This document shows positions 19,737 to 31,010 of a stretch of 64,000 nt of DNA, piece after piece (position 1 is the stretch's first letter; each line of letters opens with the position of its first letter). The notes below the pieces were generated by a model. It was given only the letters and a program-made list of their open reading frames with translations, was not told the DNA's origin and searched no databases. The position numbers and the translations under genes were made by a program. The DNA is from a bacterium (lineage in GTDB: Bacteria; Myxococcota_A; Bradymonadia; UBA7976; UBA1532), in NCBI GenBank assembly GCA_030426085.1, contig JAUHYW010000060.1:1-64000 (forward strand), read 5' to 3'.

Positions 19737-20636
19737 TCAGCGGGCGGTGACCGGGCGGGACGCCTCGGGATCGCGGGCGGCGAGGTGCTCCGGGCGGGGG
19801 CCGGGCGCGGCGAAGGGGGCCCCCAGCCGGTTGTCGGTGCGGTTGTAGACGAAGAACGCCGTGCTGCGGCCGAACGGGCTGATGTTGCCGTGCGACCCGT
19901 GGATCAAGAGCCCGTCGAAGAGCACCACCGTGCCCACCTCGCCCTCGCAGTACTCGACGCCGCCCTCCTCGATCGCCGCCCGCAGCGACGCCGTCGGGAT
20001 CGCGCCGAAGCCGATGCGGGGGTCGCTGAGGCTGCGGGTCCAGTTCTCGGGCGGGGTCGGCCCCGGGGTCTGCAACAGGCTGCGGTGGCTGCCGGGCACC
20101 ACCATCAGCGCGCCGTTCCACGCCCGGCTGGGCTCGAGCATGATCAGGGCCGAGCATACCGTGGGCCGGGGCATGCCGTCCTCGGCGTGCCACGCCTCGA
20201 AGTCCTGGTGCCAGTAGAAGCCCTGCCCGACGCCCGGCGGCTGGAAGTTGATCCGGCTCTGGTGGATGTAGACCGCCCCGCCCAGGAGCTGCTCGGCGGC
20301 GCCCAGCAGCCCCGGGTCGCGGTGCAGCTCGCCCAGCTCGGGGTGGCGGTGCGGGCTCCACAGGGTGCGCAGGGCGTCCTGGTCGTGCTCGAAGGTGGTG
20401 CGGATGTGGCCCGGCGCCTCGCCGGCCTCGGCCGCGGCCCGCATCCGCTGCAGCTCGGCGGCCACCGCCGCGCAGCGGGCCTGATCGATCAGATCGGGCA
20501 GGATCAAGAAGCCCCGCTCGACATAGCGCCGGCGCTGCGCCGCCGAGAGCGGGCCGTCGGCGGCCGGCGCGATGGGCGTCTGGCGGGGCACGGCCCCCAG
20601 GGCGCCGGTCAGGCGGGTGGGATAAGTCGCGCGCAT
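19737..20636 (-). CDS. ectD: Ectoine hydroxylase (EctD-like, Fe/2-oxoglutarate dioxygenase of the PhyH family)
   Basis: 299 aa. GFYWHQDFEAWHAEDGMP matches the EctD signature FxWHSDFETWHxEDG(M/L)P almost perfectly. C-terminal GSHGNISPF carries the second iron-ligand His. Confidence 0.8.
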   Translation of the reverse strand: MRATYPTRLTGALGAVPRQTPIAPAADGPLSAAQRRRYVERGFLILPDLIDQARCAAVAAELQRMRAAAEAGEAPGHIRTTFEHDQDALRTLWSPHRHPELGELHRDPGLLGAAEQLLGGAVYIHQSRINFQPPGVGQGFYWHQDFEAWHAEDGMPRPTVCSALIMLEPSRAWNGALMVVPGSHRSLLQTPGPTPPENWTRSLSDPRIGFGAIPTASLRAAIEEGGVEYCEGEVGTVVLFDGLLIHGSHGNISPFGRSTAFFVYNRTDNRLGAPFAAPGPRPEHLAARDPEASRPVTAR

Positions 20637-20638
20637 GA

Positions 20639-21682
20639 TCACTCCGATCGGGCGGCTCGCTCCACCGCGGCGTCGAGCACCGTCAGCGCCTGCTCGGCCC
20701 GGGGGCCGGCCATCTCGACGAACAGGTCGCGCACCGGGGCCGCCATCGCCCGGAACGCCGCCCGCTCGTCGGCGTCGAGGGTGAGCACCTCGAGCTCCGG
20801 CTTGCGCTCCAGCATGCGCTCGAGCCGCTCCTGGTTGAACCGCCGCTGGATGGCGAACGCCTCGTCGTGCAGCTCGGCGATCACCCCGTCGAGCATGCGC
20901 CGGTCGCCCTCCGACAGTCGATCGTAGAACGCCTGGTTGGTCATCACGCTGGTGACGAAGTGGGCGTGCCCCGGCAGCACGAGGTGGTCGGTGACCTCGT
21001 AGAAGCTCATCTCCTCGATGGCGAAGACCGGGTTGACCTGGGCGTCGATCATGTTGAGCTGCAGCGCGCTGTAGACCTCGGCGTAGGGCAGCGGCGTGGG
21101 GTCGGCCCCGTAGGCGTCGTAGGCGGCGAGCAGCAGCGGCGAGGTCATCACCCGCATCTTGAGCCCGGCGAAGTCCGCCGGCCGGCGCACCGGGCCCCGG
21201 GTGGTCCACACCATCAGCCCCTCGGAGACGAAGTCGAGCAGCCGGAAGTCCTTCTCGGCGTAGAGCGCGTCGAAGAACGCCCGCAGCTCGGGGTCGGCGA
21301 GGGCCCGGCTGTTGGTCGCCTCGTCGTCGTGCAGGGTGTAGTGCAGCAGGAAGACCTGCAGCTCGGGGATGATCTTGCCCAGGTGCCCCGGCGAGGCGGT
21401 GGCGAACTCCAGGGTGCCGTTGTGCAGCAGCTCGGTGATCTGGTCGCTGGTGCCCAGGGTGCCGTAGGGGTAGACCTTGACGTCGATCCGCCCCCCGCTG
21501 CGGGCCTCGATGGCCTCGGCGAAGGCCTGGGCGTAGGCGTCCTGCACGCTGCCCCGGGTCTCCTCGATGGCGAAGCGCCACACGATGGGGCCGTCGTCGC
21601 GGGCGCAGCCGGCGAGCCACGCCGCGCAGGCCATCAGGCAGGCCAGCGGCAGGGCCAGGCGGGGGGCCGTACGAGATGCCAT
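20639..21682 (-). CDS. dctP: TRAP transporter substrate-binding protein (DctP family), lipoprotein
   Basis: MASRTAPRLALPLACLMACAAWLAGC lipobox, then a DctP-type fold (WRFAIEET..., MRVMTSPLL). Confidence 0.85.
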   Translation of the reverse strand: MASRTAPRLALPLACLMACAAWLAGCARDDGPIVWRFAIEETRGSVQDAYAQAFAEAIEARSGGRIDVKVYPYGTLGTSDQITELLHNGTLEFATASPGHLGKIIPELQVFLLHYTLHDDEATNSRALADPELRAFFDALYAEKDFRLLDFVSEGLMVWTTRGPVRRPADFAGLKMRVMTSPLLLAAYDAYGADPTPLPYAEVYSALQLNMIDAQVNPVFAIEEMSFYEVTDHLVLPGHAHFVTSVMTNQAFYDRLSEGDRRMLDGVIAELHDEAFAIQRRFNQERLERMLERKPELEVLTLDADERAAFRAMAAPVRDLFVEMAGPRAEQALTVLDAAVERAARSE

Positions 21683-21687
21683 GGCGT

Positions 21688-22974
21688 TCACTCCGCGAAG
21701 GCCAGATCGCGCAGCAGCAGCGCGATGTCGGGGAAGGCGATGATCAGCACCGAGGACAGCGCGAGCAAGGCGATGAACGGCGGCGTGCCCCGGATGACCT
21801 CGAGGTAGGGCTTTCGGAACACCGCGATGGCGGTGAAGATGTCGCAGCCGAAGGGCGGGGTCGCCGAGCCGATGGCCACCTGGAGGGTCACCACCGTGCC
21901 GACGAGCACCGGGTCGATGCCCGCCTGGACCGCCACCGGGTGGAAGATCGGGGCCAGGATCAGGATCACCACGATCGGGTCGACGAACATGCAGCCGACG
22001 AAGAACGCCAGCGCGATGGTCGCCATCAGGACCGGGTAGCTGCTGTCGGCGCCGATGCCCAGCCCGCTGATGAGCGCGGTGGGCAGATCGGCGAACGAGA
22101 TGACCCACGAGAACGCCGCCCCGGCGCCGACGAGCACGAAGACCACCCCGGTGACGAGGCCGGTGTCCCGGGCGATGGCCGGCAGGTCGCTCAGCTTCAA
22201 CTGGCGGTAGATCCCGACCTCGAGGATGGCCGCGTACAGCACCGAGACCGCCGCCGCCTCGGTGGGGCTGAAGAAGCCGGCGTAGATGCCCCCGATGATG
22301 ATCACCGGGAAGCCCATCGGCAGCGAGGCCCGGCCGAGGGCCTTCATCCGGCCCCGCCAGTCGACCCGCGCCTCGGACTCGATGCCCAGCCGCACCGCGG
22401 CGGCGTAGCAGTAGCCGCAGAACAGCACGAGGATGAGCAGCCCCGGGCCGATGCCGGCGATGAACAGCTCGCCGATCGAGGTGCCCGTGACCACCCCGTA
22501 GACGATCATGCCGATGCTCGGCGGGATGAGCAGCGCGATGTCGCTGGCGTTGATGATCAGGGCGGTGGCGAAGCTGTCGGGGTAGCCCCGGGCGACCATG
22601 CGCGGGCGCAGCGGCCCGCCGATGGCCACCACCGTCGCCTGGGTCGAGCCGGAGAGCGCGCCGAACAGGGTGCAGGCCACCGCGCTGGTGATCGGCAGCC
22701 CGCCCCGCAGGTGGCCCATGAAGGCCCCGATGAGGTCCAGCAGGCGGTCGGCGGCCTGGCCCCGGGTCATGATCTCGGCGGCCAGGATGAACATCGGCAC
22801 CGCGATGAGGGCCGCCGGCTGCACCCCCCCGATCATCTGCTGCACCAGCACCGCCGGGTCGACCCCGGGGAACCAGCCGAGCAGCGCGACGAGCGCGGCG
22901 AGCAGCAGGGGCACCAGCATCGGCACCCCCAGCAGCAGGAAGACCAGCATGACGCCCAGCAGCATCCAGCTCAT
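21688..22974 (-). CDS. dctM: TRAP transporter large permease (DctM)
   Basis: 428 aa polytopic, canonical DctM sequence features. Confidence 0.9.
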   Translation of the reverse strand: MSWMLLGVMLVFLLLGVPMLVPLLLAALVALLGWFPGVDPAVLVQQMIGGVQPAALIAVPMFILAAEIMTRGQAADRLLDLIGAFMGHLRGGLPITSAVACTLFGALSGSTQATVVAIGGPLRPRMVARGYPDSFATALIINASDIALLIPPSIGMIVYGVVTGTSIGELFIAGIGPGLLILVLFCGYCYAAAVRLGIESEARVDWRGRMKALGRASLPMGFPVIIIGGIYAGFFSPTEAAAVSVLYAAILEVGIYRQLKLSDLPAIARDTGLVTGVVFVLVGAGAAFSWVISFADLPTALISGLGIGADSSYPVLMATIALAFFVGCMFVDPIVVILILAPIFHPVAVQAGIDPVLVGTVVTLQVAIGSATPPFGCDIFTAIAVFRKPYLEVIRGTPPFIALLALSSVLIIAFPDIALLLRDLAFAE

Positions 22975-22984
22975 CGGCGCCTCC

Positions 22985-23536
22985 TCAGATGCCCGGCTGC
23001 TCGGCGACCGCCGCCTGCCCGGCGGGGGTGTCGGCCGAGAGCCAGATGCCGGGGGTGGTGGCGTTGCGGGCGATGGTCAGCACGCATTGCAGGCCGGCGA
23101 GGGCCAGCCCCACCGGGGCCGCCAGGTAGCCGACCCACAGCGGCACCGAGAGCACCGGCGAGCGGGTGCCGAGGGTGTAGACCGTGTCCAGGTAGCCCAC
23201 TCCGAAGGCGGCGAGCGCGAAGCACAGCCCGCCGGTCACCGCCGCGCCGAAGATGGTCAGCCCCTTGCGGGTGCGGGCGCCGCACAGGTCGTAGAGCGCG
23301 GTCATGCGGATGTGCCGCCCCCGGCTGGCCCCGTGGCTCAGGCCGGCGAACGTCACGAAGAGGATGGCGAAGCGGCTGAGCTCTTCGGTGGCGGCGATGC
23401 TCACCCCGAAGACGATCCGGGCCAGCACGTTGCCGATGGTGGCCAGGGCGATGAGCAGGATGCCCCCCGCCAGCAGCGCGACCTCGACGTGGCGCAGGCC
23501 GGCGGCGAGCCGATCGAGCGCGGTCTTCACGGGCAT
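22985..23536 (-). CDS. dctQ: TRAP transporter small permease (DctQ)
   Basis: 183 aa, 4 TM, immediately upstream of dctM on the same strand. Confidence 0.8.
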   Translation of the reverse strand: MPVKTALDRLAAGLRHVEVALLAGGILLIALATIGNVLARIVFGVSIAATEELSRFAILFVTFAGLSHGASRGRHIRMTALYDLCGARTRKGLTIFGAAVTGGLCFALAAFGVGYLDTVYTLGTRSPVLSVPLWVGYLAAPVGLALAGLQCVLTIARNATTPGIWLSADTPAGQAAVAEQPGI

Positions 23537-23561
23537 CTCCCCGCGGGCCCGGCGGCCCGCG

Positions 23562-23963
23562 TCAGTCGTCGTCGGCCCTCGCGGGCGGTGCGGGGTAGGC
23601 CCCGTCGGGGCCGTGCACCTCGCGCCCGGTCACCGGCGGGTTGAAGACACACACCATGCGCATCCGCTCGTCGGCGAACAGCGTGTGGTGGTCGTGGGCG
23701 TCGAGCGCGTAGAGCGTGCCCGGCGCGATGGCGTGCCGCTCGCCGGTGGCGTGGTCTTCGATCCAGCCCCGGCCCTCGACGCAGTAGACCGCCTCGAGGT
23801 GGTGCTTGTAGTGCATCTCGAGCGGCGCGCCGGGGTGGATGAGCGTGTCGTGCACCGAGAAGCCCATCCCGGCGTCGGCCAGCAGCAGCCGGCGGCTGGT
23901 CCACTGCTTCGCCGAGACCTCGCGGTCGGTGCCGACGATGTCGTCGAGGCGGACGAGCTTCAC
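23562..23963 (-). CDS. ectC: L-ectoine synthase
   Basis: 133 aa cupin. [19 protein letters not shown] and [13 protein letters not shown] align to EctC metal/substrate motifs. Confidence 0.9.
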
Positions 23964-23964
23964 C

Positions 23965-25299
23965 TCAGGCCCCCACCCGGGCGGCGATGCGGGCCGTCAC
24001 CTCGGGCATCTCCCGGGGCGCCTCGGCCGGCGGGCGATCGAAGACCGCGTCCACCGCCGCCTCGAGCCGGTCGAGGCCCTCGGCGAGCACCCCGTCGTCG
24101 ATGGTCAGCGGGGGCAGCAGCTTGACGACCTCGCCCTCGGGGCCGGCGGTCTCGATGATCAGGCCCCGCTCGAAGGCAGCCCGGCTGATGGCCGACGCCC
24201 GCGCCGGGCCGGTCACCAGCCCCCGGATGAGGCCCCGCCCCCGCACCGGGCAGCCGTGGCGGGCGCCCATCGCTTCGAAGCGCCCGGCGGCCAGCGCGGC
24301 CCGGCGCTGCACGTCGGCGGTCAGCGCCCCGTCGCTCCAGAAGCGGTCGAGCGCCGCCGCGGCGGTGACGCAGGCCGGGTTGAAGCCGCGGAAGGTGCCG
24401 TTGTGCTCGCCGGGCGACCACTGGTCCAGCTCGGAGCGCATCAGCACCGCCGAGAAGGGCAGGCCGTAGCCCGACAGCGACTTCGACAGGCAGACGATGT
24501 CCGGGCGCAGGCCGGCCGGCTCGAAGCTGAAGAACGGCCCGGTGCGCCCGCAGCCGACCTGGATGTCGTCGACGATCAGGAGCGCGCCGATGCGCCGGGC
24601 GAAGGCGGCGAGGCGCTTCAGCCAGGGGTCGGAGGCCACGTTGACCCCGCCCTCGGCCTGCACCGTCTCGAGGATGAACGCCGCCGGCACGTCGACCCCG
24701 CTGCTGGGGTCGCCGAGCAACCGCTCGAGGTGGTCGATGGTGTCGCCCTCGCCGAGGTAGCCGGCGAAGGGCATCCGGGCGACGTGGTGCAGCGGCACCC
24801 CGGCCCCGGCCCGCTTGCTGGCGTTGCCGGTCAGGGCCAGCGAGCCGAGGGTCATGCCGTGGAAGGCGTTGGTGAACGCCAGCACCGTCGGGCGCCCGGT
24901 GACCTTGCGGGCCAGCTTGACCGCCGCCTCGACCGCGTTGGTGCCGGTGGGGCCGGGCAGCATGACCTTGTACGGCAGGTCCCGGGGCAGCAGCACCCGC
25001 CGCTCGAAGGTCTCGAGGAACCGGATGCGGGCCGCGGTGGCCATGTCGAGGCTGTGGGTCACCCCGTCGGCGGTCAGGTACTCGAGCAGGGCCGCCTTGA
25101 GGTGGGGCTCGTTGTGCCCGTAGTTCAGCGCGCCGGCCCCGGCGAAGAAGTCGATGTAGCGCCGCCCGCGGGCGTCGAAGAGGTGGGGGCCGACGGCCTT
25201 GGTGAACACGGTCGGGAAGCTGCGCACGTAGCTGCGCACCTCGGACTCGAGGCGGCGCACGGGGGCCAGATCGGTCGGGGCGTGGTCGAGCAGGGTCAT
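23965..25299 (-). CDS. ectB: Diaminobutyrate--2-oxoglutarate transaminase
   Basis: 444 aa class-III aminotransferase. Full-length EctB-like (…[14 protein letters not shown]…[10 protein letters not shown]…). Confidence 0.9.
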
Positions 25300-25811
25300 G
25301 GCTGACTCCGGAGGGGTCCGATGCGGAAGCGATCCTCGCGCTCGTGCCCGTCGGCGAACAGCTCGGCGGGCAGGTCGGGCTCGATCGCCAGCCGGGCGTC
25401 GTGCCGGCGGGCGAAGCCTTCGAACAGGCGGCGGGAGGCGGTGTTGGAGGGGGTGACGGTGGCCTCGAGGACCGAGGCCCCCTCGGCCCCGGTCACGAAC
25501 GCGTCGAGCAGCCGGCCGGCGAGCCCCTGCCCCCGGGCGGCGGGGGAGACGGCCACCTGCCACACGAACGCCGCCTCGGGGCGGGTCGGCGGGCGGTAGC
25601 CCATCACGAAGCCCAGCAGCGGGCCGGCGGCGCCCCGGGGGCCCTCGGCCACCCAGCACGTCTCGGCGAAGTCGCGGCACATGATCAGGTAGAGATAGGC
25701 CGAGTTGCGGTCGAGCCCGCCACCCTCGCGCACGAGGGCCTCGATGCGGGGCCCGTCGGCGAGGGTCGCCCGACGCAGGCCGATGGGCGTGGGGTCGGGA
25801 TCAGGCGGCAT
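25296..25811 (-). CDS. ectA: L-2,4-diaminobutyrate acetyltransferase
   Basis: 171 aa GNAT (QVAVSPAARGQGLAGRLL). ATGA overlap with ectB. Confidence 0.85.
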   Translation of the reverse strand: MPPDPDPTPIGLRRATLADGPRIEALVREGGGLDRNSAYLYLIMCRDFAETCWVAEGPRGAAGPLLGFVMGYRPPTRPEAAFVWQVAVSPAARGQGLAGRLLDAFVTGAEGASVLEATVTPSNTASRRLFEGFARRHDARLAIEPDLPAELFADGHEREDRFRIGPLRSQP

Positions 25812-27252
25812 CGGCCGGCTCCCGGTCGTCGCCCTCCGCCGCCGTGAGCGCCCGCCAGGTGGGGCCGAGGTGGGGCGCGTCGTCGCTGCCCCGCAGCAGG
25901 TGGGCGTGCAGGAAGCGCTCGATGCCGTCGGCGTGCTCGGCGTCCACCACCAGCGACAGGCTGATGTCGTCGGGGGTGTGGGTCGCCAGCAGCACGTCGG
26001 GCCCCTCGGTGAGCAGCGACCCGGCCCGGCGCACCATGTCGGCGAAGACCGCCCGGCCGACCAGGCTCACCGAGGCGACGTCCCAGTTCACCGTCGGGGT
26101 GCAGAAGCGCTCCAGGTCGCGCAGCAGCACCGGCACCTCGTCCCGGGCGCCGGGGAAGGCGCTGGGGTCGACGGTGGCCCGGATCTCACCCGGCGAGCTC
26201 GAGATCAGATCCATCGACAGCCCGTGGCGCCGGAAGCAGGCCGACACCTGGGCCATGAAGCCCACCGGCTGCCACCGCGGGTCGCGCTGCATCGAGATCA
26301 GGTGCAGGTTGCGCCGGGCGGTGACCGACTTGATGCCCTCGCCGACGACCTCGCCGTCGATGATCGTGCCCGGCACCTCGGGGCGGTCGGTCCAGCCCAG
26401 GTGCAGCGGGATGCCGCACGCCCGCAGCGGGCGCAGGCAGCGGGGGTGCAGCGCCCGGGCCCCGAGCGCGGCCAGCGAGGCGGCCTCGGGGTAGCTCAGC
26501 CGATGCACCAGGCGGGCGAGGGGGTAGCGCCCGGGGTGGGCGGTGAAGAGGCCTGGCACGTCGGACCAGATCTCCAGCCGGCGGGCCGAGAGGCGGGTCG
26601 CGAGGTAGGCCGCCGAGGTGTCCGAGCCGCCCCGGCCGAGCAGCACCGTGTGGCCCTCGTCGTCCCGGGCGGTGAAGCCCTGGGTGATCACGACCGGCCG
26701 GCCCCGCTCGACCAGCCGGTGGCCGACGAGCGGGTCGGGCCCCGCCGCGCAGGTGCCCGCCAGGAAGCGGCTGGCCGCCGAGCTGCCCTCGGGCGGCGGC
26801 TCGGCCTTGAGCAGCGACCGGGCGTCGACCCAGGCGGTCGGCAGCTCGTTGTCGCCGAGGTAGGCCGAGCCCAGCCGGGTCGACATGCGCTCACCGAGCG
26901 CGAGCAGCGCCGCCCGCTCGGCCGGCTCGACGACGGCCGGATCGGCCGCCAGCCGCTCGAGCTGCTCGAAGTCGGTGCCCAGCAGGCGATCGGCGTCCAC
27001 CCCCAGATCGCGGCCCAGGGCCCGATGCTGGGCCCGCAGCGCCTCGACGAGCCGGCCCCGCTCGTCGGCCGGGGGGGCCTCGGCGAGCCGCTCGAGGCGG
27101 TTGGTGACCCCCTCGAGGGCCGAGCAGACCACCAGCGGGCGCTCCCCGGCGGCGAGGCGATCGGAGACGACCCGGGCGATGCATCGCCACCGGCGCGCGG
27201 TCGAGACGCTGCTGCCACCGAACTTGAGAACGACCCACGGTGTGGTTGGCAT
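25801..27252 (-). CDS. ask: Aspartate kinase, ectoine-pathway-specialised (Ask_Ect type)
   Basis: MPTTPWVVLKFGGSSV kinase N-terminus, C-terminal ACT domains. Overlaps ectA by 11 nt. The longer track ORF (to 27387) would read through the promoter, so the ATG at 27252 is preferred. Confidence 0.85.
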   Translation of the reverse strand: MPTTPWVVLKFGGSSVSTARRWRCIARVVSDRLAAGERPLVVCSALEGVTNRLERLAEAPPADERGRLVEALRAQHRALGRDLGVDADRLLGTDFEQLERLAADPAVVEPAERAALLALGERMSTRLGSAYLGDNELPTAWVDARSLLKAEPPPEGSSAASRFLAGTCAAGPDPLVGHRLVERGRPVVITQGFTARDDEGHTVLLGRGGSDTSAAYLATRLSARRLEIWSDVPGLFTAHPGRYPLARLVHRLSYPEAASLAALGARALHPRCLRPLRACGIPLHLGWTDRPEVPGTIIDGEVVGEGIKSVTARRNLHLISMQRDPRWQPVGFMAQVSACFRRHGLSMDLISSSPGEIRATVDPSAFPGARDEVPVLLRDLERFCTPTVNWDVASVSLVGRAVFADMVRRAGSLLTEGPDVLLATHTPDDISLSLVVDAEHADGIERFLHAHLLRGSDDAPHLGPTWRALTAAEGDDREPADAA

Positions 27253-27358
27253 CCTGTCTGTGCTCCCTGTGCATGTCATCACCCGACCCGGCGAAGGCAT
27301 CGCCCGAGCGGCTGTCACCGTTATTACGGAGACGGGCTCCGAGCTGATTCGGGCGCGA

Positions 27359-27387
27359 ATATTAAGGGAACTAAGTTTTTCTGGCAA
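27359..27387 (-). promoter_or_regulatory. Sigma-70-type promoter (TTGCCA -N17- TAATAT) for the ask-ect-TRAP-ectD operon
   Basis: Minus strand reads ttgcca gaaaaacttagttccct taatat. It lies within the only AT-rich stretch upstream of ask. Confidence 0.45.
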
Positions 27388-27435
27388 CCCCCTGTCCCCG
27401 ATCGATTTTCGGGGCCGGATTTCGGGGCCGCCCGA

Positions 27436-28788
27436 TCAGGGGTTCGGCGGCAGCGCCCCGACGCCGGCCCCGCTGTCGACCACCCGGCACTCGGCGGCCA
27501 GGGTGAACGGGGTGTGCACGAAGGCCATCTGGCACATCTCGTCGTCGGCGGTGAAGCCCCAGTTGACCGTGCGATCGGTCGGGTTGCGGTAGTGGCAGCG
27601 GAACTCGAAGCCGGTGCCGGTGGCGATGGGCAGCGGCGGGTCGAGCTGCATCAGCTCGGGGGCGTGCCAGTCGTCGTTGGCGTAGAGCAGCTCGCCGGTG
27701 CGCTCGCCGTCGAAGCGGTAGATCTCGATGCGCTCGGCCAGCTCGTGGGTGTGGCTCGACAAGAGGATCATCTCGATGTCCCGGGTGAGCACGCAGCGGG
27801 TCCACTCGACCCAGCCCTCGACGCCCGGCGCGAGGTCGATGTCGACGTCGCGCACCGCGCTGCCCCAGATCGAGTCTTCGACGTCGGCGGGATCCATCGT
27901 GTAGGCGTTGATCCGGGACCACACCGGCACCTCGACCGGGGTCGGGTTGACGTAGTGGATCTCGACCATGACCCGCAGCGCGCCGGGCAGGTTGGCCGCC
28001 ACGCCTTCGGGCAGCTCGAGCACCTCCTCCTCGTTCTGGGTGGCGAAGATGAAGATGCCCTCCTCCATCATCGAGGGGTAGGTCTCGTAGAGTTCGTCGC
28101 AGTCGTACATGCCCGGCTCGAGATCGACCCCCGCCAGCAGCCCCAGGGCCATCACGTCCATGTGGTGCACCCCCGGGCTCTGCAAGGCGTGCACCCGGTT
28201 GACCGGGGTGAACGGGCCCGGCGGGGTCGGCAGATCGGCCACCGCGCACTTCCAGATCTCGCCGCCCGCCGGGGCCACCGTGTCGATGCCCATCTGGAAG
28301 CCCTCCGCCAGCGGCGGCGGGGGCAGCTCGTCCGGAGAGCGGGTGCCGGTCACCGTCGCCCCGCCGTCGGGGGCGAGGCCCGGGTCGAAGTCGCCGCCCC
28401 GCAGCGCGCCGGCCGCGATCCAATCCCGCACCCGCCCGATCTGGGCCGACGAGAGCGCGAAGCCCGGCGGCATCTGGCGCACGTCGCCCACCGCCGCCGA
28501 GAGCACCTGCACCAGCAGGCTGCCGTCGGGGTCGCCGGGCATCACCCGGATCCCGTCGGCCAGGGTCGCCGGCTGCTCGACGAGGTGGGCGTAGGCCGCG
28601 TCGGCGGTGGACAGGTCGAGCCCCGCCTTGGGGTTGGGGCCGGCGTGGCACGCCTCGAAGGCGCACGAGACGGCGAACACCTCGGCGTGCACCTGCCCCA
28701 GCCCGAGGCCGGCGGGGGCCGGGTCTTCGTCGGCGTCGCAGCCGAGCGCGAGCAGACAGAGCGATCCGCAGATGACGAGACGGCGCAT
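27436..28788 (-). CDS. Lipoprotein: N-terminal cytochrome-like (PSCyt-like) domain + PHM/DBH-type copper monooxygenase-like domains
   Basis: MRRLVICGSLCLLALGC is a lipobox. VFAVSCAFEACHAGPNPKAGLDLS is Cys/His-containing. SPGVHHMDVM (HH) and SSHTHELAER (HxH) followed by EMCQMAF (Met) resemble the CuH/CuM sites of peptidylglycine monooxygenase-type enzymes. Confidence 0.55.
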   Translation of the reverse strand: MRRLVICGSLCLLALGCDADEDPAPAGLGLGQVHAEVFAVSCAFEACHAGPNPKAGLDLSTADAAYAHLVEQPATLADGIRVMPGDPDGSLLVQVLSAAVGDVRQMPPGFALSSAQIGRVRDWIAAGALRGGDFDPGLAPDGGATVTGTRSPDELPPPPLAEGFQMGIDTVAPAGGEIWKCAVADLPTPPGPFTPVNRVHALQSPGVHHMDVMALGLLAGVDLEPGMYDCDELYETYPSMMEEGIFIFATQNEEEVLELPEGVAANLPGALRVMVEIHYVNPTPVEVPVWSRINAYTMDPADVEDSIWGSAVRDVDIDLAPGVEGWVEWTRCVLTRDIEMILLSSHTHELAERIEIYRFDGERTGELLYANDDWHAPELMQLDPPLPIATGTGFEFRCHYRNPTDRTVNWGFTADDEMCQMAFVHTPFTLAAECRVVDSGAGVGALPPNP

Positions 28789-28892
28789 GGCGACCTCCGG
28801 GCGGTGAAGCGCGCGTCGGCAATCTACCGGAACCCGGCCCGACGACACAGGCGCGTGACCCGCGGGGGCCCGGTGGGCCATACTCCCGGGCC

Positions 28893-31010
<2,118 letters not shown>

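What the first reader, a model, noticed from the sequence alone, without database searches (positions are those of the whole stretch)
27436..28788. Lipoprotein resembling a copper type-II (PHM/DBH-like) monooxygenase with an N-terminal cytochrome-like domain
HH (SPGVHHMD) and HxH...M (SSHTHEL...EMCQM) motifs are spaced like the CuH and CuM sites of peptidylglycine alpha-hydroxylating monooxygenase. The N-terminus has a Cys/His motif (SCAFEACH...GLDLS) reminiscent of planctomycete-type cytochrome c domains, but it is CX4CH rather than CXXCH. Bacterial PHM-like enzymes are rare and substrates are unknown. The location directly upstream of the ectoine operon and divergent from a sulfatase-like membrane enzyme is notable.
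Basis: inference. Interest (0 to 1): 0.6.

Follow-up and report, generated by a model that had tools for sequence, protein, structure and literature searches.

The report
Copper monooxygenase fused to a cytochrome
This gene encodes a membrane-anchored bacterial relative of the animal copper enzymes that make noradrenaline and amidated peptide hormones, joined to a small cytochrome-c-like domain that probably feeds it electrons in place of vitamin C; its substrate is unknown and its position next to the ectoine genes is a coincidence.

Summary
Window 27436-28788 (-) encodes a 450-aa lipoprotein. Residues about 156-443 form a two-domain PHM/DBH-type copper monooxygenase core. All six copper ligands are present: H208, H209 and H278 (CuH), and H346, H348 and M418 (CuM). 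They are invariant in 35 homologues and align with rat PHM H107/H108/H172/H242/H244/M314. Support: Pfam Cu2_monoox_C E=3e-9, profile against PDB E=3.5e-7, Foldseek to DBH and PHM E about 1e-13.

The new finding is that this cytochrome-like module recurs with PHM-like genes. It is fused at the N- or C-terminus or encoded as a neighbouring gene. This held in 11 of 21 metagenome loci with enough flanking DNA. That argues it is a dedicated electron-donor module, but this is inferred.

The ectoine and sulfatase neighbourhood is not conserved, even in an 87%-identical orthologue. PHM's peptide-carboxylate-binding residues are absent, so it is not a peptidylglycine hydroxylase. The substrate is unknown. 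Haem and copper binding are untested.

Verdict: a new variant of a known kind, of moderate interest.

The parts
27436..28788 (-). Complete coding sequence, 450 aa plus stop: lipoprotein = cytochrome-c-like domain + linker + two-domain PHM/DBH-like copper monooxygenase
   Evidence: ORF list. Identical 450-aa protein P0001 in public data. Pfam hits. AlphaFold2 model with mean pLDDT 85.6.
28794..28798 (-). Shine-Dalgarno-like GGAGG, 5 nt upstream of the ATG at 28788
   Evidence: Read directly from the sequence.
28738..28788 (-). Lipoprotein signal peptide MRRLVICGSLCLLALG|C (residues 1-17; lipidated Cys17 predicted)
   Evidence: Fits the lipobox pattern by eye. An equivalent hydrophobic stretch plus Cys occurs in nearly all homologues. 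No signal-peptide predictor was run.
28384..28710 (-). N-terminal c-type-cytochrome-like domain (residues about 27-135), a PSCyt1-type variant
28645..28665 (-). C42-AFEA-C47-H48: predicted haem-c attachment motif, CX4CH
   Evidence: Invariant CxFxxCH in 28 of 28 long forms. Both Cys and the His are invariant across 44 fused and stand-alone relatives, while the Cys spacing varies from 2 to 7. CX4CH is a documented haem-binding motif (PMC11492766, PMC10454114).
28468..28473 (-). M106-P107: predicted distal (sixth) haem ligand
   Evidence: Met-Pro is invariant across 44 fused and stand-alone relatives, including canonical CXXCH cytochromes.
28324..28383 (-). Flexible linker (residues 136-155) between the cytochrome-like and catalytic domains
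   Evidence: pLDDT below 50 for residues 136-145. Poorly conserved and variable in length in the alignment.
27889..28323 (-). CuH (electron-transfer) beta-sandwich domain, residues about 156-300
   Evidence: Aligns with PHM domain I in the profile-to-PDB alignment and in Foldseek matches to 4zel and 1phm. Not detected by a Pfam model for the N-terminal domain at E<=1.
28162..28167 (-). H208-H209, two of the three CuH ligands
   Evidence: Invariant. Align with the PHM VHHM motif, H107/H108 (numbering from PMC6123673).
27955..27957 (-).
   Evidence: Invariant. Aligns with PHM H172 in LQVHY.
27460..27888 (-). CuM (catalytic) beta-sandwich domain, residues about 301-443
   Evidence: Pfam Cu2_monoox_C E=3.4e-9, 36.8 bits, above the gathering score of 23. 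Also.
27745..27753 (-). H346-T-H348, two CuM ligands
   Evidence: Invariant. Align with PHM H242-T-H244.
27535..27537 (-). M418 (DEMCQ), the thioether ligand of CuM
   Evidence: Invariant. Aligns with PHM M314 in DEMCN.

Best explanation
The gene encodes a lipid-anchored, extracytoplasmic two-copper monooxygenase of the PHM/DBH type (a non-coupled binuclear copper enzyme) from a probable member of the Myxococcota.

In PHM and DBH, the CuM site (here H346, H348, M418) binds O2 and hydroxylates a C-H bond of the substrate. The CuH site (here H208, H209, H278) stores and passes on the second electron. Animal enzymes re-reduce both coppers with ascorbate.

I propose that here the N-terminal domain is a haem-c cytochrome. 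Haem would be attached through C42 and C47, with H48 and M106 as axial ligands. The domain is tethered by a 20-residue flexible linker. It would take electrons from the periplasmic respiratory pool and deliver them to CuH, making the enzyme independent of ascorbate.

Shown here: homology, fold, conservation of all metal-ligand positions, the cytochrome fold, and the repeated genomic coupling of the two modules.

Inferred: haem and copper are actually bound, electrons flow haem to CuH to CuM, and the reaction is a hydroxylation.

The substrate is unknown. It is not a C-terminal glycine-extended peptide bound the way PHM binds it. The gene is a stand-alone transcription unit, unrelated to the adjacent ectoine operon.
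For: Catalytic core:
- Pfam Cu2_monoox_C, 36.8 bits against a gathering score of 23.
- The family profile hits rat PHM at E=3.5e-7 across both domains, with HH/H/HxH/M aligned to the PHM ligands (ligand identities from PMC6123673).
- AlphaFold2 model pLDDT 85.6. Foldseek gives DBH 4zel E=3.6e-14, and PHM 1sdw/1phm E about 1e-13 with TM about 0.65.
- The six ligands, plus six Cys at positions of three PHM disulfides, are invariant.

Cytochrome domain:
- Domain model pLDDT 96.7.
- Cys, Cys, His and Met-Pro are invariant in 44 relatives. These include proteins that Pfam calls PSCyt1, Cytochrome_CBB3 or Cytochrom_C.
- Cys spacing among 100 stand-alone relatives is 2 (25), 3 (4), 4 (42), 5 (12), 6 (10) and 7 (1).
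- Co-linear fused homologues at 28% identity (P0293 CTQCH, P0360 CVACH) have canonical CXXCH.
- CX4CH is a known haem-c motif (PMC11492766, PMC10454114).
- A Sec/lipoprotein signal places the protein where haem c is attached.

Functional coupling of the two modules:
- Stand-alone cytochrome-like genes sit in clusters with divergent PHM-like lipoprotein genes (L087/L088, L089/L090).
- Of 80 metagenome loci found through the cytochrome module, 19 carry a PHM-like ORF.
- Of the 21 loci with at least 2.5 kb on both sides, 11 carry one within 6 kb. Most are less than 600 bp away on the same strand.
- Fusions occur in both orders: L148 N-terminal, L161 and L169 C-terminal.
- The partners keep the five His and the Cys, and nearly all keep the Met.
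- The PHM-like family is only about 1 in a million protein clusters, so chance adjacency is negligible.
- On a neighbour-joining tree of the catalytic domain, the long forms are one clade nested among short forms. This points to a single gain in this subfamily, with independent fusions elsewhere.
Against: - No experiment shows haem or copper binding.
- The query falls just below Pfam's PSCyt1 threshold (21.0 against 22).
- The full-length model has low confidence at the CX4CH loop (residues 42-49) and the linker. The position of the cytochrome relative to CuH is therefore unknown, and no coordinates were available to measure distances.
- Most close short-form relatives (about 80 loci) have no cytochrome-like gene within 8 kb; only L028 does. 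The module is therefore not obligatory for the family.
- About half of the stand-alone cytochrome-like genes with good flanks have no PHM-like neighbour.
- No conserved neighbour hints at a substrate.
Confidence: 0.6

Rival explanations
1. The catalytic core is a genuine copper monooxygenase, but the N-terminal domain is a degenerate cytochrome fold that no longer binds haem. The 2-residue insertion in CXXCH would have destroyed attachment. The domain would then act as a structural, disulfide-bonded or protein/substrate-binding module, and electrons would come from a separate donor.
For: - The motif is not canonical, and the Pfam PSCyt1 score is below threshold.
- The CX4CH loop has low confidence in the full-length model.
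- Close short-form relatives work without the domain and without a linked cytochrome.
- No member of the PSCyt1 family was found with a solved structure.
Against: - Both Cys, the following His and the distal Met-Pro are strictly invariant across 44 diverse relatives, whereas everything around them varies. That pattern is expected for haem ligation, not for a relic.
- Canonical CXXCH versions occupy the same position in co-linear fused homologues.
- CX4CH binds haem in cytochrome c3 (PMC10454114).
Confidence: 0.2
2. It is a true bacterial orthologue of peptidylglycine alpha-hydroxylating monooxygenase. It would hydroxylate C-terminal glycine of exported peptides as the first step of amidation.
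For: PHM is the best sequence match in the PDB, and PHM and DBH are the best fold matches. All copper ligands and three disulfide positions are kept.
Against: - PHM R240 and Y318, which hold the substrate carboxylate (my knowledge of PHM structures), correspond to S344 and A422 here and vary among relatives. N316 corresponds to Q420.
- No lyase (PAL-like) or precursor-peptide gene recurs nearby. No neighbour family is shared by more than 6 of 83 loci.
- Identity to PHM is only 17-19%.
Confidence: 0.07
3. The gene is functionally tied to its neighbours, for example by modifying ectoine or hydroxyectoine or their precursors, or by working with the divergently transcribed sulfatase-like membrane enzyme.
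For: It lies directly upstream of ask-ectA-ectB-ectC-TRAP-PhyH on the same strand. It is 104 bp from the divergent sulfatase-like gene, which also carries a 'Cu-binding_MopE' motif.
Against: - The arrangement is seen only in the same organism (L001, 100% identical).
- The 87%-identical orthologue L007 and 58-59%-identical L002, L003 and L005 have entirely different neighbours.
- A 185-bp, less GC-rich gap with a sigma-70-like promoter separates it from ask.
- The protein is exported, whereas ectoine synthesis is cytoplasmic. A PhyH-type dioxygenase, the family of ectoine hydroxylase, is already in the cluster.
Confidence: 0.03
4. It is not a monooxygenase. It would be a copper-handling or redox protein, for example a periplasmic Cu(I) or Fe(II) oxidase or a copper store, that reuses the PHM fold and passes electrons from metal to cytochrome, the reverse direction.
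For: - The closest structural relative of the N-domain, FoxE, is a putative iron oxidase.
- No substrate-binding residues could be identified.
- One divergent partner (L089) appears to replace the CuM Met by His (by eye).
Against: - Every characterised member of the fold is a hydroxylase.
- The exact His3 / His2Met ligand sets of a non-coupled binuclear site are invariant.
- The Met ligand is specifically associated with O2 activation at CuM (established knowledge of PHM and DBH).
Confidence: 0.08

Closest known systems
Peptidylglycine alpha-hydroxylating monooxygenase (PHM, catalytic core of PAM; PDB 1PHM/1OPM/1SDW)
   Same: Two beta-sandwich domains. CuH ligands HH plus H, and CuM ligands HxH plus M, at matching alignment positions and nearly identical spacing. 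Three of five disulfide positions are kept. It works in an oxidising, non-cytoplasmic compartment.
   Different: 17-19% identity. The carboxylate-binding R240 and Y318 are absent. There is no PAL lyase partner. The protein is a lipoprotein rather than a type-I membrane or secretory-granule protein. It has an added cytochrome-c-like domain, and ascorbate is unlikely to be the reductant in a bacterial periplasm (inference).
Dopamine beta-hydroxylase (DBH; PDB 4ZEL), also tyramine beta-monooxygenase and MOXD1
   Same: Best Foldseek hit (E=3.6e-14). As in DBH, an extra N-terminal domain precedes the catalytic core. In DBH this is a DOMON domain, a fold that binds haem b in some other proteins (my knowledge).
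   Different: The N-terminal domain here is an all-helical c-type cytochrome fold, not a DOMON beta-sandwich. There is no dimerisation domain. The substrate is unknown.
PSCyt1 'Planctomycete cytochrome C' domain (PF07635) and class-I-like cytochromes c such as FoxE (5MAB) and PccH (4RLR)
   Different: CX4CH instead of CXXCH. The query scores 21.0 bits against a gathering score of 22. It is fused to a copper monooxygenase rather than to the DUF1549/DUF1553-type partners usual for PSCyt1 (my knowledge). Haem binding is unverified.
Tethered-cytochrome redox enzymes, e.g. cellobiose dehydrogenase (cytochrome domain on a flexible linker that also reduces copper LPMOs)
   Same: The proposed logic is the same. 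A mobile haem domain on a flexible linker shuttles single electrons to a copper (or flavin) catalytic centre (analogy only; compare PMC11725913 on electron delivery to copper PMOs).
   Different: No homology. The haem is type c rather than b, and the copper centre is different.

Membership tests
Copper type II ascorbate-dependent monooxygenases (PHM/DBH/TBH superfamily) | C-terminal (CuM) domain recognised by the curated family model | tested here: met
   PF03712 Cu2_monoox_C, 36.8 bits against a gathering score of 23, E=3.4e-9, residues 333-425.
Copper type II ascorbate-dependent monooxygenases (PHM/DBH/TBH superfamily) | N-terminal (CuH) domain homologous to PHM domain I | tested here: met
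   No Pfam hit for an N-terminal-domain model at E<=1. However, the family profile aligns with PHM from residue 16 to 273 of the chain, covering both domains (E=3.5e-7). Foldseek aligns 281-310 columns to PHM and DBH.
Copper type II ascorbate-dependent monooxygenases (PHM/DBH/TBH superfamily) | CuH ligands: His-His pair plus a third His about 65-70 residues downstream | tested here: met
   H208, H209 and H278 are invariant in 35 sequences. They align with PHM H107, H108 and H172 (PMC6123673).
Copper type II ascorbate-dependent monooxygenases (PHM/DBH/TBH superfamily) | CuM ligands: HxH plus Met about 70 residues downstream | tested here: met
   H346, H348 and M418 are invariant. They align with PHM H242, H244 and M314.
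Copper type II ascorbate-dependent monooxygenases (PHM/DBH/TBH superfamily) | Two-domain beta-sandwich fold | tested here: met
   Model pLDDT 85.6. DBH 4zel E=3.6e-14. PHM E about 1e-13 with target-normalised TM 0.64-0.68.
Copper type II ascorbate-dependent monooxygenases (PHM/DBH/TBH superfamily) | Binds two copper ions and uses ascorbate as reductant | not testable with these tools
   Needs ICP-MS, EPR and activity assays. Ascorbate dependence is predicted not to hold.
PHM proper (peptidylglycine alpha-hydroxylating monooxygenase, EC 1.14.17.3) | Residues that bind the substrate's C-terminal carboxylate and backbone (R240, Y318, N316) | tested here: not met
   The aligned positions are S344, A422 and Q420 in the query and vary among relatives. 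The roles of these residues come from my knowledge of PHM-peptide structures.
PHM proper (peptidylglycine alpha-hydroxylating monooxygenase, EC 1.14.17.3) | Association with a PAL-type lyase, fused or nearby | tested here: not met
   No neighbour family recurs in more than 6 of 83 loci. No extra domain beyond the cytochrome-like one.
c-type cytochrome, PSCyt1-like (PF07635) | Curated model score above the gathering threshold | tested here: not met
   21.0 bits against 22, E=5.4e-4. Several orthologues (P0002, P0005, P0008, P0024) do carry a precomputed PF07635 hit.
c-type cytochrome, PSCyt1-like (PF07635) | Canonical CXXCH haem-attachment motif | tested here: not met
   CAFEACH, i.e. CX4CH, invariant as CxFxxCH in 28 long forms. 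CX4CH is a documented rarer haem-c motif (PMC11492766, PMC10454114).
c-type cytochrome, PSCyt1-like (PF07635) | Proximal His directly after the second Cys, and a distal Met ligand | tested here: met
   H48 and M106-P107 are invariant across 44 fused and stand-alone relatives.
c-type cytochrome, PSCyt1-like (PF07635) | Cytochrome c fold | tested here: met
c-type cytochrome, PSCyt1-like (PF07635) | Covalently bound haem | not testable with these tools
   Needs expression with a cytochrome c maturation system, haem staining and mass spectrometry.
Bacterial lipoproteins | Signal peptide ending in a lipobox with an invariant Cys | tested here: met
   MRRLVICGSLCLLALG|C fits the PROSITE-type lipobox rule by inspection. 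An equivalent Cys is present in long and short homologues. No dedicated predictor was available.
Ectoine biosynthesis gene cluster | Conserved co-localisation or co-transcription with ect genes | tested here: not met
   Only L001, the same organism, shares ask/ectA/ectB. L007 (87% identity) and all other loci do not. There is a separate promoter-like site in the 185-bp gap.

The most novel reading that the evidence does not exclude
A widespread but undescribed class of bacterial (mainly Myxococcota) periplasmic PHM/DBH-type copper monooxygenases that do not need ascorbate. They would be wired to respiratory electron flow through a dedicated c-type cytochrome module, fused at either end or encoded next door. 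The haem-attachment loop of that module has expanded from CXXCH to CX3-7CH. If so, the module would be a natural single-polypeptide system for studying the long-debated CuH-to-CuM electron transfer. It would also point to an unknown periplasmic hydroxylation chemistry in predatory and social bacteria.
Probability: 0.5. Interest if true: 0.7.

Novelty: new variant of a known kind. Interest (0 to 1): 0.55.

Why it matters
PHM and DBH are the textbook non-coupled binuclear copper monooxygenases. How electrons reach CuH, and cross about 11 A of solvent to CuM, is still argued. All studied members are eukaryotic, glycosylated, ascorbate-dependent enzymes that are awkward to produce.

A bacterial homologue with every ligand conserved and a built-in or operon-encoded haem donor would be useful in three ways:
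- It would be a tractable, spectroscopically handy model, because the haem reports on electron transfer.
- It would show how this chemistry is supported where there is no ascorbate.
- It would reveal an unknown extracytoplasmic hydroxylation reaction in Myxococcota.

The CX2-7CH series in one small cytochrome family is also a ready-made test set for the substrate tolerance of cytochrome c maturation systems. Separately, the result removes a false lead, because the ectoine linkage is incidental.

Tried and rejected
- Single-sequence phmmer against the PDB found nothing meaningful. A family profile was needed.
- NCBIfam has no model for the protein.
- Neighbourhood analysis of 83 loci (all-against-all BLAST of flank ORFs) found no conserved partner. 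The only large clusters were the gene itself and spurious overlapping-frame ORFs typical of 74% GC DNA. This rejected links to ectoine, the sulfatase or any biosynthetic cluster.
- A search for stand-alone cytochrome-like genes next to the close short-form relatives gave only one case, L028. The coupling was found only by searching outward from the cytochrome module.
It was repeated with the narrower alignment A4.
- Nine literature searches found no paper on bacterial PHM-like enzymes or a PHM-cytochrome fusion. The library is incomplete, so this is not proof of novelty.
- Copper-copper and haem-copper distances could not be measured, because model coordinates are not exposed.
- The longer 481-aa ORF from the ATG at 28881 was considered and rejected. 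There is no homologue support, and the RBS sits before 28788.
Full report
**1. What is in the sequence**

The window is about 74% GC. On the minus strand, an ORF runs from an ATG at 28788 to a stop at 27436-27438, giving 450 aa. The ATG lies 5 nt downstream of GGAGG at 28794-28798. An in-frame ATG at 28881 would add 31 residues. However, the identical public protein P0001 is 450 aa, and all homologues begin at the signal peptide.

The N-terminus MRRLVICGSLCLLALG|C fits a lipoprotein lipobox. A hydrophobic stretch followed by Cys is present in almost every homologue, long or short.

**2. The catalytic core is a PHM/DBH-type copper monooxygenase**

- Pfam detects Cu2_monoox_C above its gathering score (36.8 against 23 bits).
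- A database search returned 127 relatives, nearly all unnamed and nearly all from Myxococcota metagenome bins.
- In an alignment of 35 relatives (40-85% identity), H208, H209, H278, H346, H348 and M418 are invariant. So are six cysteines: C181, C230, C332, C398, C419 and C434.
- A profile of that alignment hits rat PHM in the PDB at E=3.5e-7, over both domains.
  - The printed alignment places VHHM on VHHM, EIHY on QVHY, SHTH on VHTH and DEMCQ on DEMCN.
  - These are PHM's CuH ligands H107/H108/H172 and CuM ligands H242/H244/M314 (PMC6123673).
- The spacings are 69, 68-70 and 70 residues, against 64, 70 and 70 in PHM.
- An AlphaFold2 model (pLDDT 85.6) matches human DBH (E=3.6e-14) and some thirty PHM entries (E about 1e-13, TM about 0.65 on the target). 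Nothing else comes close.
- The invariant cysteines fall at the positions of three of PHM's five disulfides. This is inferred from the alignment and fits an exported protein.

The protein is not PHM itself. PHM R240 and Y318 clamp the peptide's terminal carboxylate (my knowledge of the PHM-substrate structures). They align with S344 and A422 and vary in relatives. No lyase or precursor gene accompanies the gene.

**3. The N-terminal domain is a cytochrome c fold with an expanded haem loop**

- Pfam PSCyt1 scores 21.0 bits, just below its threshold of 22.
- All 28 full-length homologues carry C-x-F-x-x-C-H and Q-M-P.
- A profile of the domain finds about 100 stand-alone proteins of 120-180 aa. 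Some are annotated by Pfam as PSCyt1, Cytochrome_CBB3 or Cytochrom_C and have ordinary CXXCH.
- Aligned together (44 sequences), the only invariant positions are the two Cys, the His after the second Cys, a Gly, a Ser, Met-Pro and a Trp.
- The number of residues between the cysteines is 2 in 25 proteins, 3 in 4, 4 in 42, 5 in 12, 6 in 10 and 7 in 1.
- A model of the domain alone is very confident (pLDDT 96.7).
- CX4CH is an established, rarer haem-c motif and occurs twice in cytochrome c3 (PMC11492766, PMC10454114).
- Co-linear fused homologues from more distant subfamilies (about 28% identity over about 410 residues) have canonical CTQCH or CVACH at the same place.

Strict conservation of exactly the haem-ligating residues, with a variable loop between the cysteines, argues for a functional haem site. 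Haem binding itself remains untested.

**4. The two modules are repeatedly coupled**

This was not in the original finding. The stand-alone cytochrome-like protein P0145 lies in an apparent three-gene operon. The genes are a 315-aa PHM-like lipoprotein with all six ligands, a Cys-rich 150-aa protein, and the cytochrome-like protein (L087/L088). P0139 lies about 3 kb downstream of another PHM-like lipoprotein gene (L089/L090).

A metagenome scan seeded with the cytochrome module returned 80 loci.
- Nineteen carry a PHM-like ORF on the same, often very short, contig.
- Of the 21 loci with at least 2.5 kb on both sides, 11 have one within 6 kb. It is usually less than 600 bp away on the same strand, in either order.
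- Three are fusions: one N-terminal and two C-terminal cytochrome.
- The partners keep the five histidines and the cysteines, and nearly all keep the methionine.

The PHM-like family accounts for only 1583 of 1.84 billion cluster representatives at E<=1e-10. This association therefore cannot be chance.

Within the query's own subfamily, the long forms are a single clade nested among short forms. The close short forms generally lack a nearby cytochrome-like gene; only L028 has one. The module is thus an accessory that has been recruited several times.

**5. Mechanism proposed**

By homology, O2 would be activated at CuM (H346, H348, M418) and a substrate C-H bond hydroxylated. CuH (H208, H209, H278) would supply the second electron.

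I infer that the haem-c domain takes electrons from periplasmic carriers and re-reduces CuH, replacing ascorbate. The domain is tethered by a 20-residue linker of low confidence and poor conservation. The domain order recalls DBH, where a DOMON domain precedes the core.

The steps not shown are metal and haem occupancy, the direction and rate of electron transfer, and the substrate.

**6. Genomic context**

Downstream on the same strand lie:
- an aspartokinase;
- a GNAT acetyltransferase (EctA-like);
- a class-III aminotransferase (EctB-like);
- ectoine synthase;
- TRAP DctQ and DctM;
- a PhyH-type dioxygenase.

Upstream and divergent are a sulfatase-family membrane protein and ileS.

This arrangement recurs only in L001, a contig from the same organism (100% identity). 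The 87%-identical orthologue L007 and the 58-59% relatives L002, L003 and L005 have unrelated neighbours. Across 83 loci, no neighbour family is shared by more than six.

The 185-bp gap before the aspartokinase is less GC-rich. It holds a sigma-70-like TTGCCA-17-TAATAT (27387..27359), where shuffles predict about 0.1 such sites. The monooxygenase gene is therefore an independent unit, and the ectoine and sulfatase adjacency is incidental.

**7. Comparison and novelty**

The protein belongs to the PHM/DBH superfamily, since all testable defining features are met. It is not PHM sensu stricto, because the substrate-binding residues and the lyase partner are missing.

The N-domain belongs structurally to c-type cytochromes of the PSCyt1 kind, but with a non-canonical CX4CH and a sub-threshold Pfam score.

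Nine full-text searches found no description of bacterial PHM-like enzymes or of a PHM-cytochrome c pairing. The library is incomplete, so novelty is provisional.

I rate the finding a new variant of a known kind. The catalytic fold is familiar, while the hard-wired haem donor and the CX2-7CH cytochrome family are new. Interest is moderate at 0.55. The finding would give a tractable bacterial model for a long-standing electron-transfer question and points to unknown periplasmic chemistry, but everything beyond homology and genomic association still needs experiments.

Noticed in passing
window 19737-27254 (-): A complete-looking ectoine locus on the minus strand. In order: aspartokinase (ATG about 27251), GNAT/EctA-like (25296-25811), EctB-like aminotransferase (23965-25305), ectoine synthase (23562-23963), TRAP DctQ (22985-23536) and DctM (21688-22974). 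A PhyH-family dioxygenase ORF follows (19737-21620). Its PhyH domain starts only at residue 366, so the start codon is probably mis-set or there is an N-terminal extension.
   Followed up: partly
window 27359-27387 (-), within the 185-bp gap 27251-27435: A sigma-70-like promoter, TTGCCA-17-TAATAT, lies in a locally less GC-rich spacer just upstream of the aspartokinase gene. Two overlapping matches were found, against 0.1 expected from shuffles. No intrinsic terminator was detected after the monooxygenase gene.
   Followed up: partly
window 28893-31010 (+): The divergent sulfatase-family protein (705 aa) has a long hydrophobic N-terminal half. It also has a 'Cu-binding_MopE' putative metal-binding motif (PF11617) at residues 260-287, ahead of the sulfatase domain. 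Whether this motif binds copper is unknown. The adjacency to a copper enzyme is not conserved.
   Followed up: no
L087 3589-5399 and L088 3613-5399: An apparent three-gene operon in a metagenome contig. It encodes a divergent PHM-like lipoprotein (315 aa, all six Cu ligands), a Cys-rich 146-154-aa lipoprotein ending in a (GE)n repeat, and a stand-alone cytochrome-like protein with CX5CH. A MoxR-type AAA ATPase gene lies downstream.
   Followed up: partly
L089 1089-2171 (and L090): A 360-aa PHM-like lipoprotein in which the CuM methionine appears replaced by histidine (VGEHCNVF where PHM has SDEMCNLY, by eye). This would give a possible His3 CuM site. It sits in a cluster of four unannotated lipoprotein-like genes upstream of the cytochrome-like P0139.
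   Followed up: no
Proteins P0126-P0225 (stand-alone relatives of the N-domain): This small cytochrome-like family shows a continuous series of haem-motif spacings: CX2CH 25, CX3CH 4, CX4CH 42, CX5CH 12, CX6CH 10 and CX7CH 1. His and Met-Pro are invariant. Several metagenome loci carry two tandem copies and no PHM-like gene.
   Followed up: partly
Proteins P0243-P0371 (representatives): Many PHM-like representatives are 390-560 aa, with the catalytic core at about residues 35-330. They have an unexplained C-terminal extension of about 100 aa or more that lacks any haem motif.
   Followed up: no
L126 4946-10106: One metagenome contig carries two different PHM-like genes flanking a single cytochrome-like gene. 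One is 96 bp upstream and one about 3 kb downstream, all on the same strand.
   Followed up: no
Loci L028, L045, L060, L069, L071, L073, L075, L081, L086: Record titles assign these MAG contigs to Rickettsiales, Enterobacteriaceae, Enterobacterales or Klebsiella. Their PHM-like genes cluster with those of Myxococcota, so the taxonomic labels look unreliable.
   Followed up: no
window 25705-29103 (+) and 27371-29491 (-), among others: Very long ORFs (1132 aa and 706 aa) overlap the real genes in other frames or on the opposite strand. They are Arg/Gly/Pro-rich artefacts of 74% GC DNA. Antisense ORFs of this kind also formed false 'conserved' clusters in the neighbourhood analysis.
   Followed up: yes
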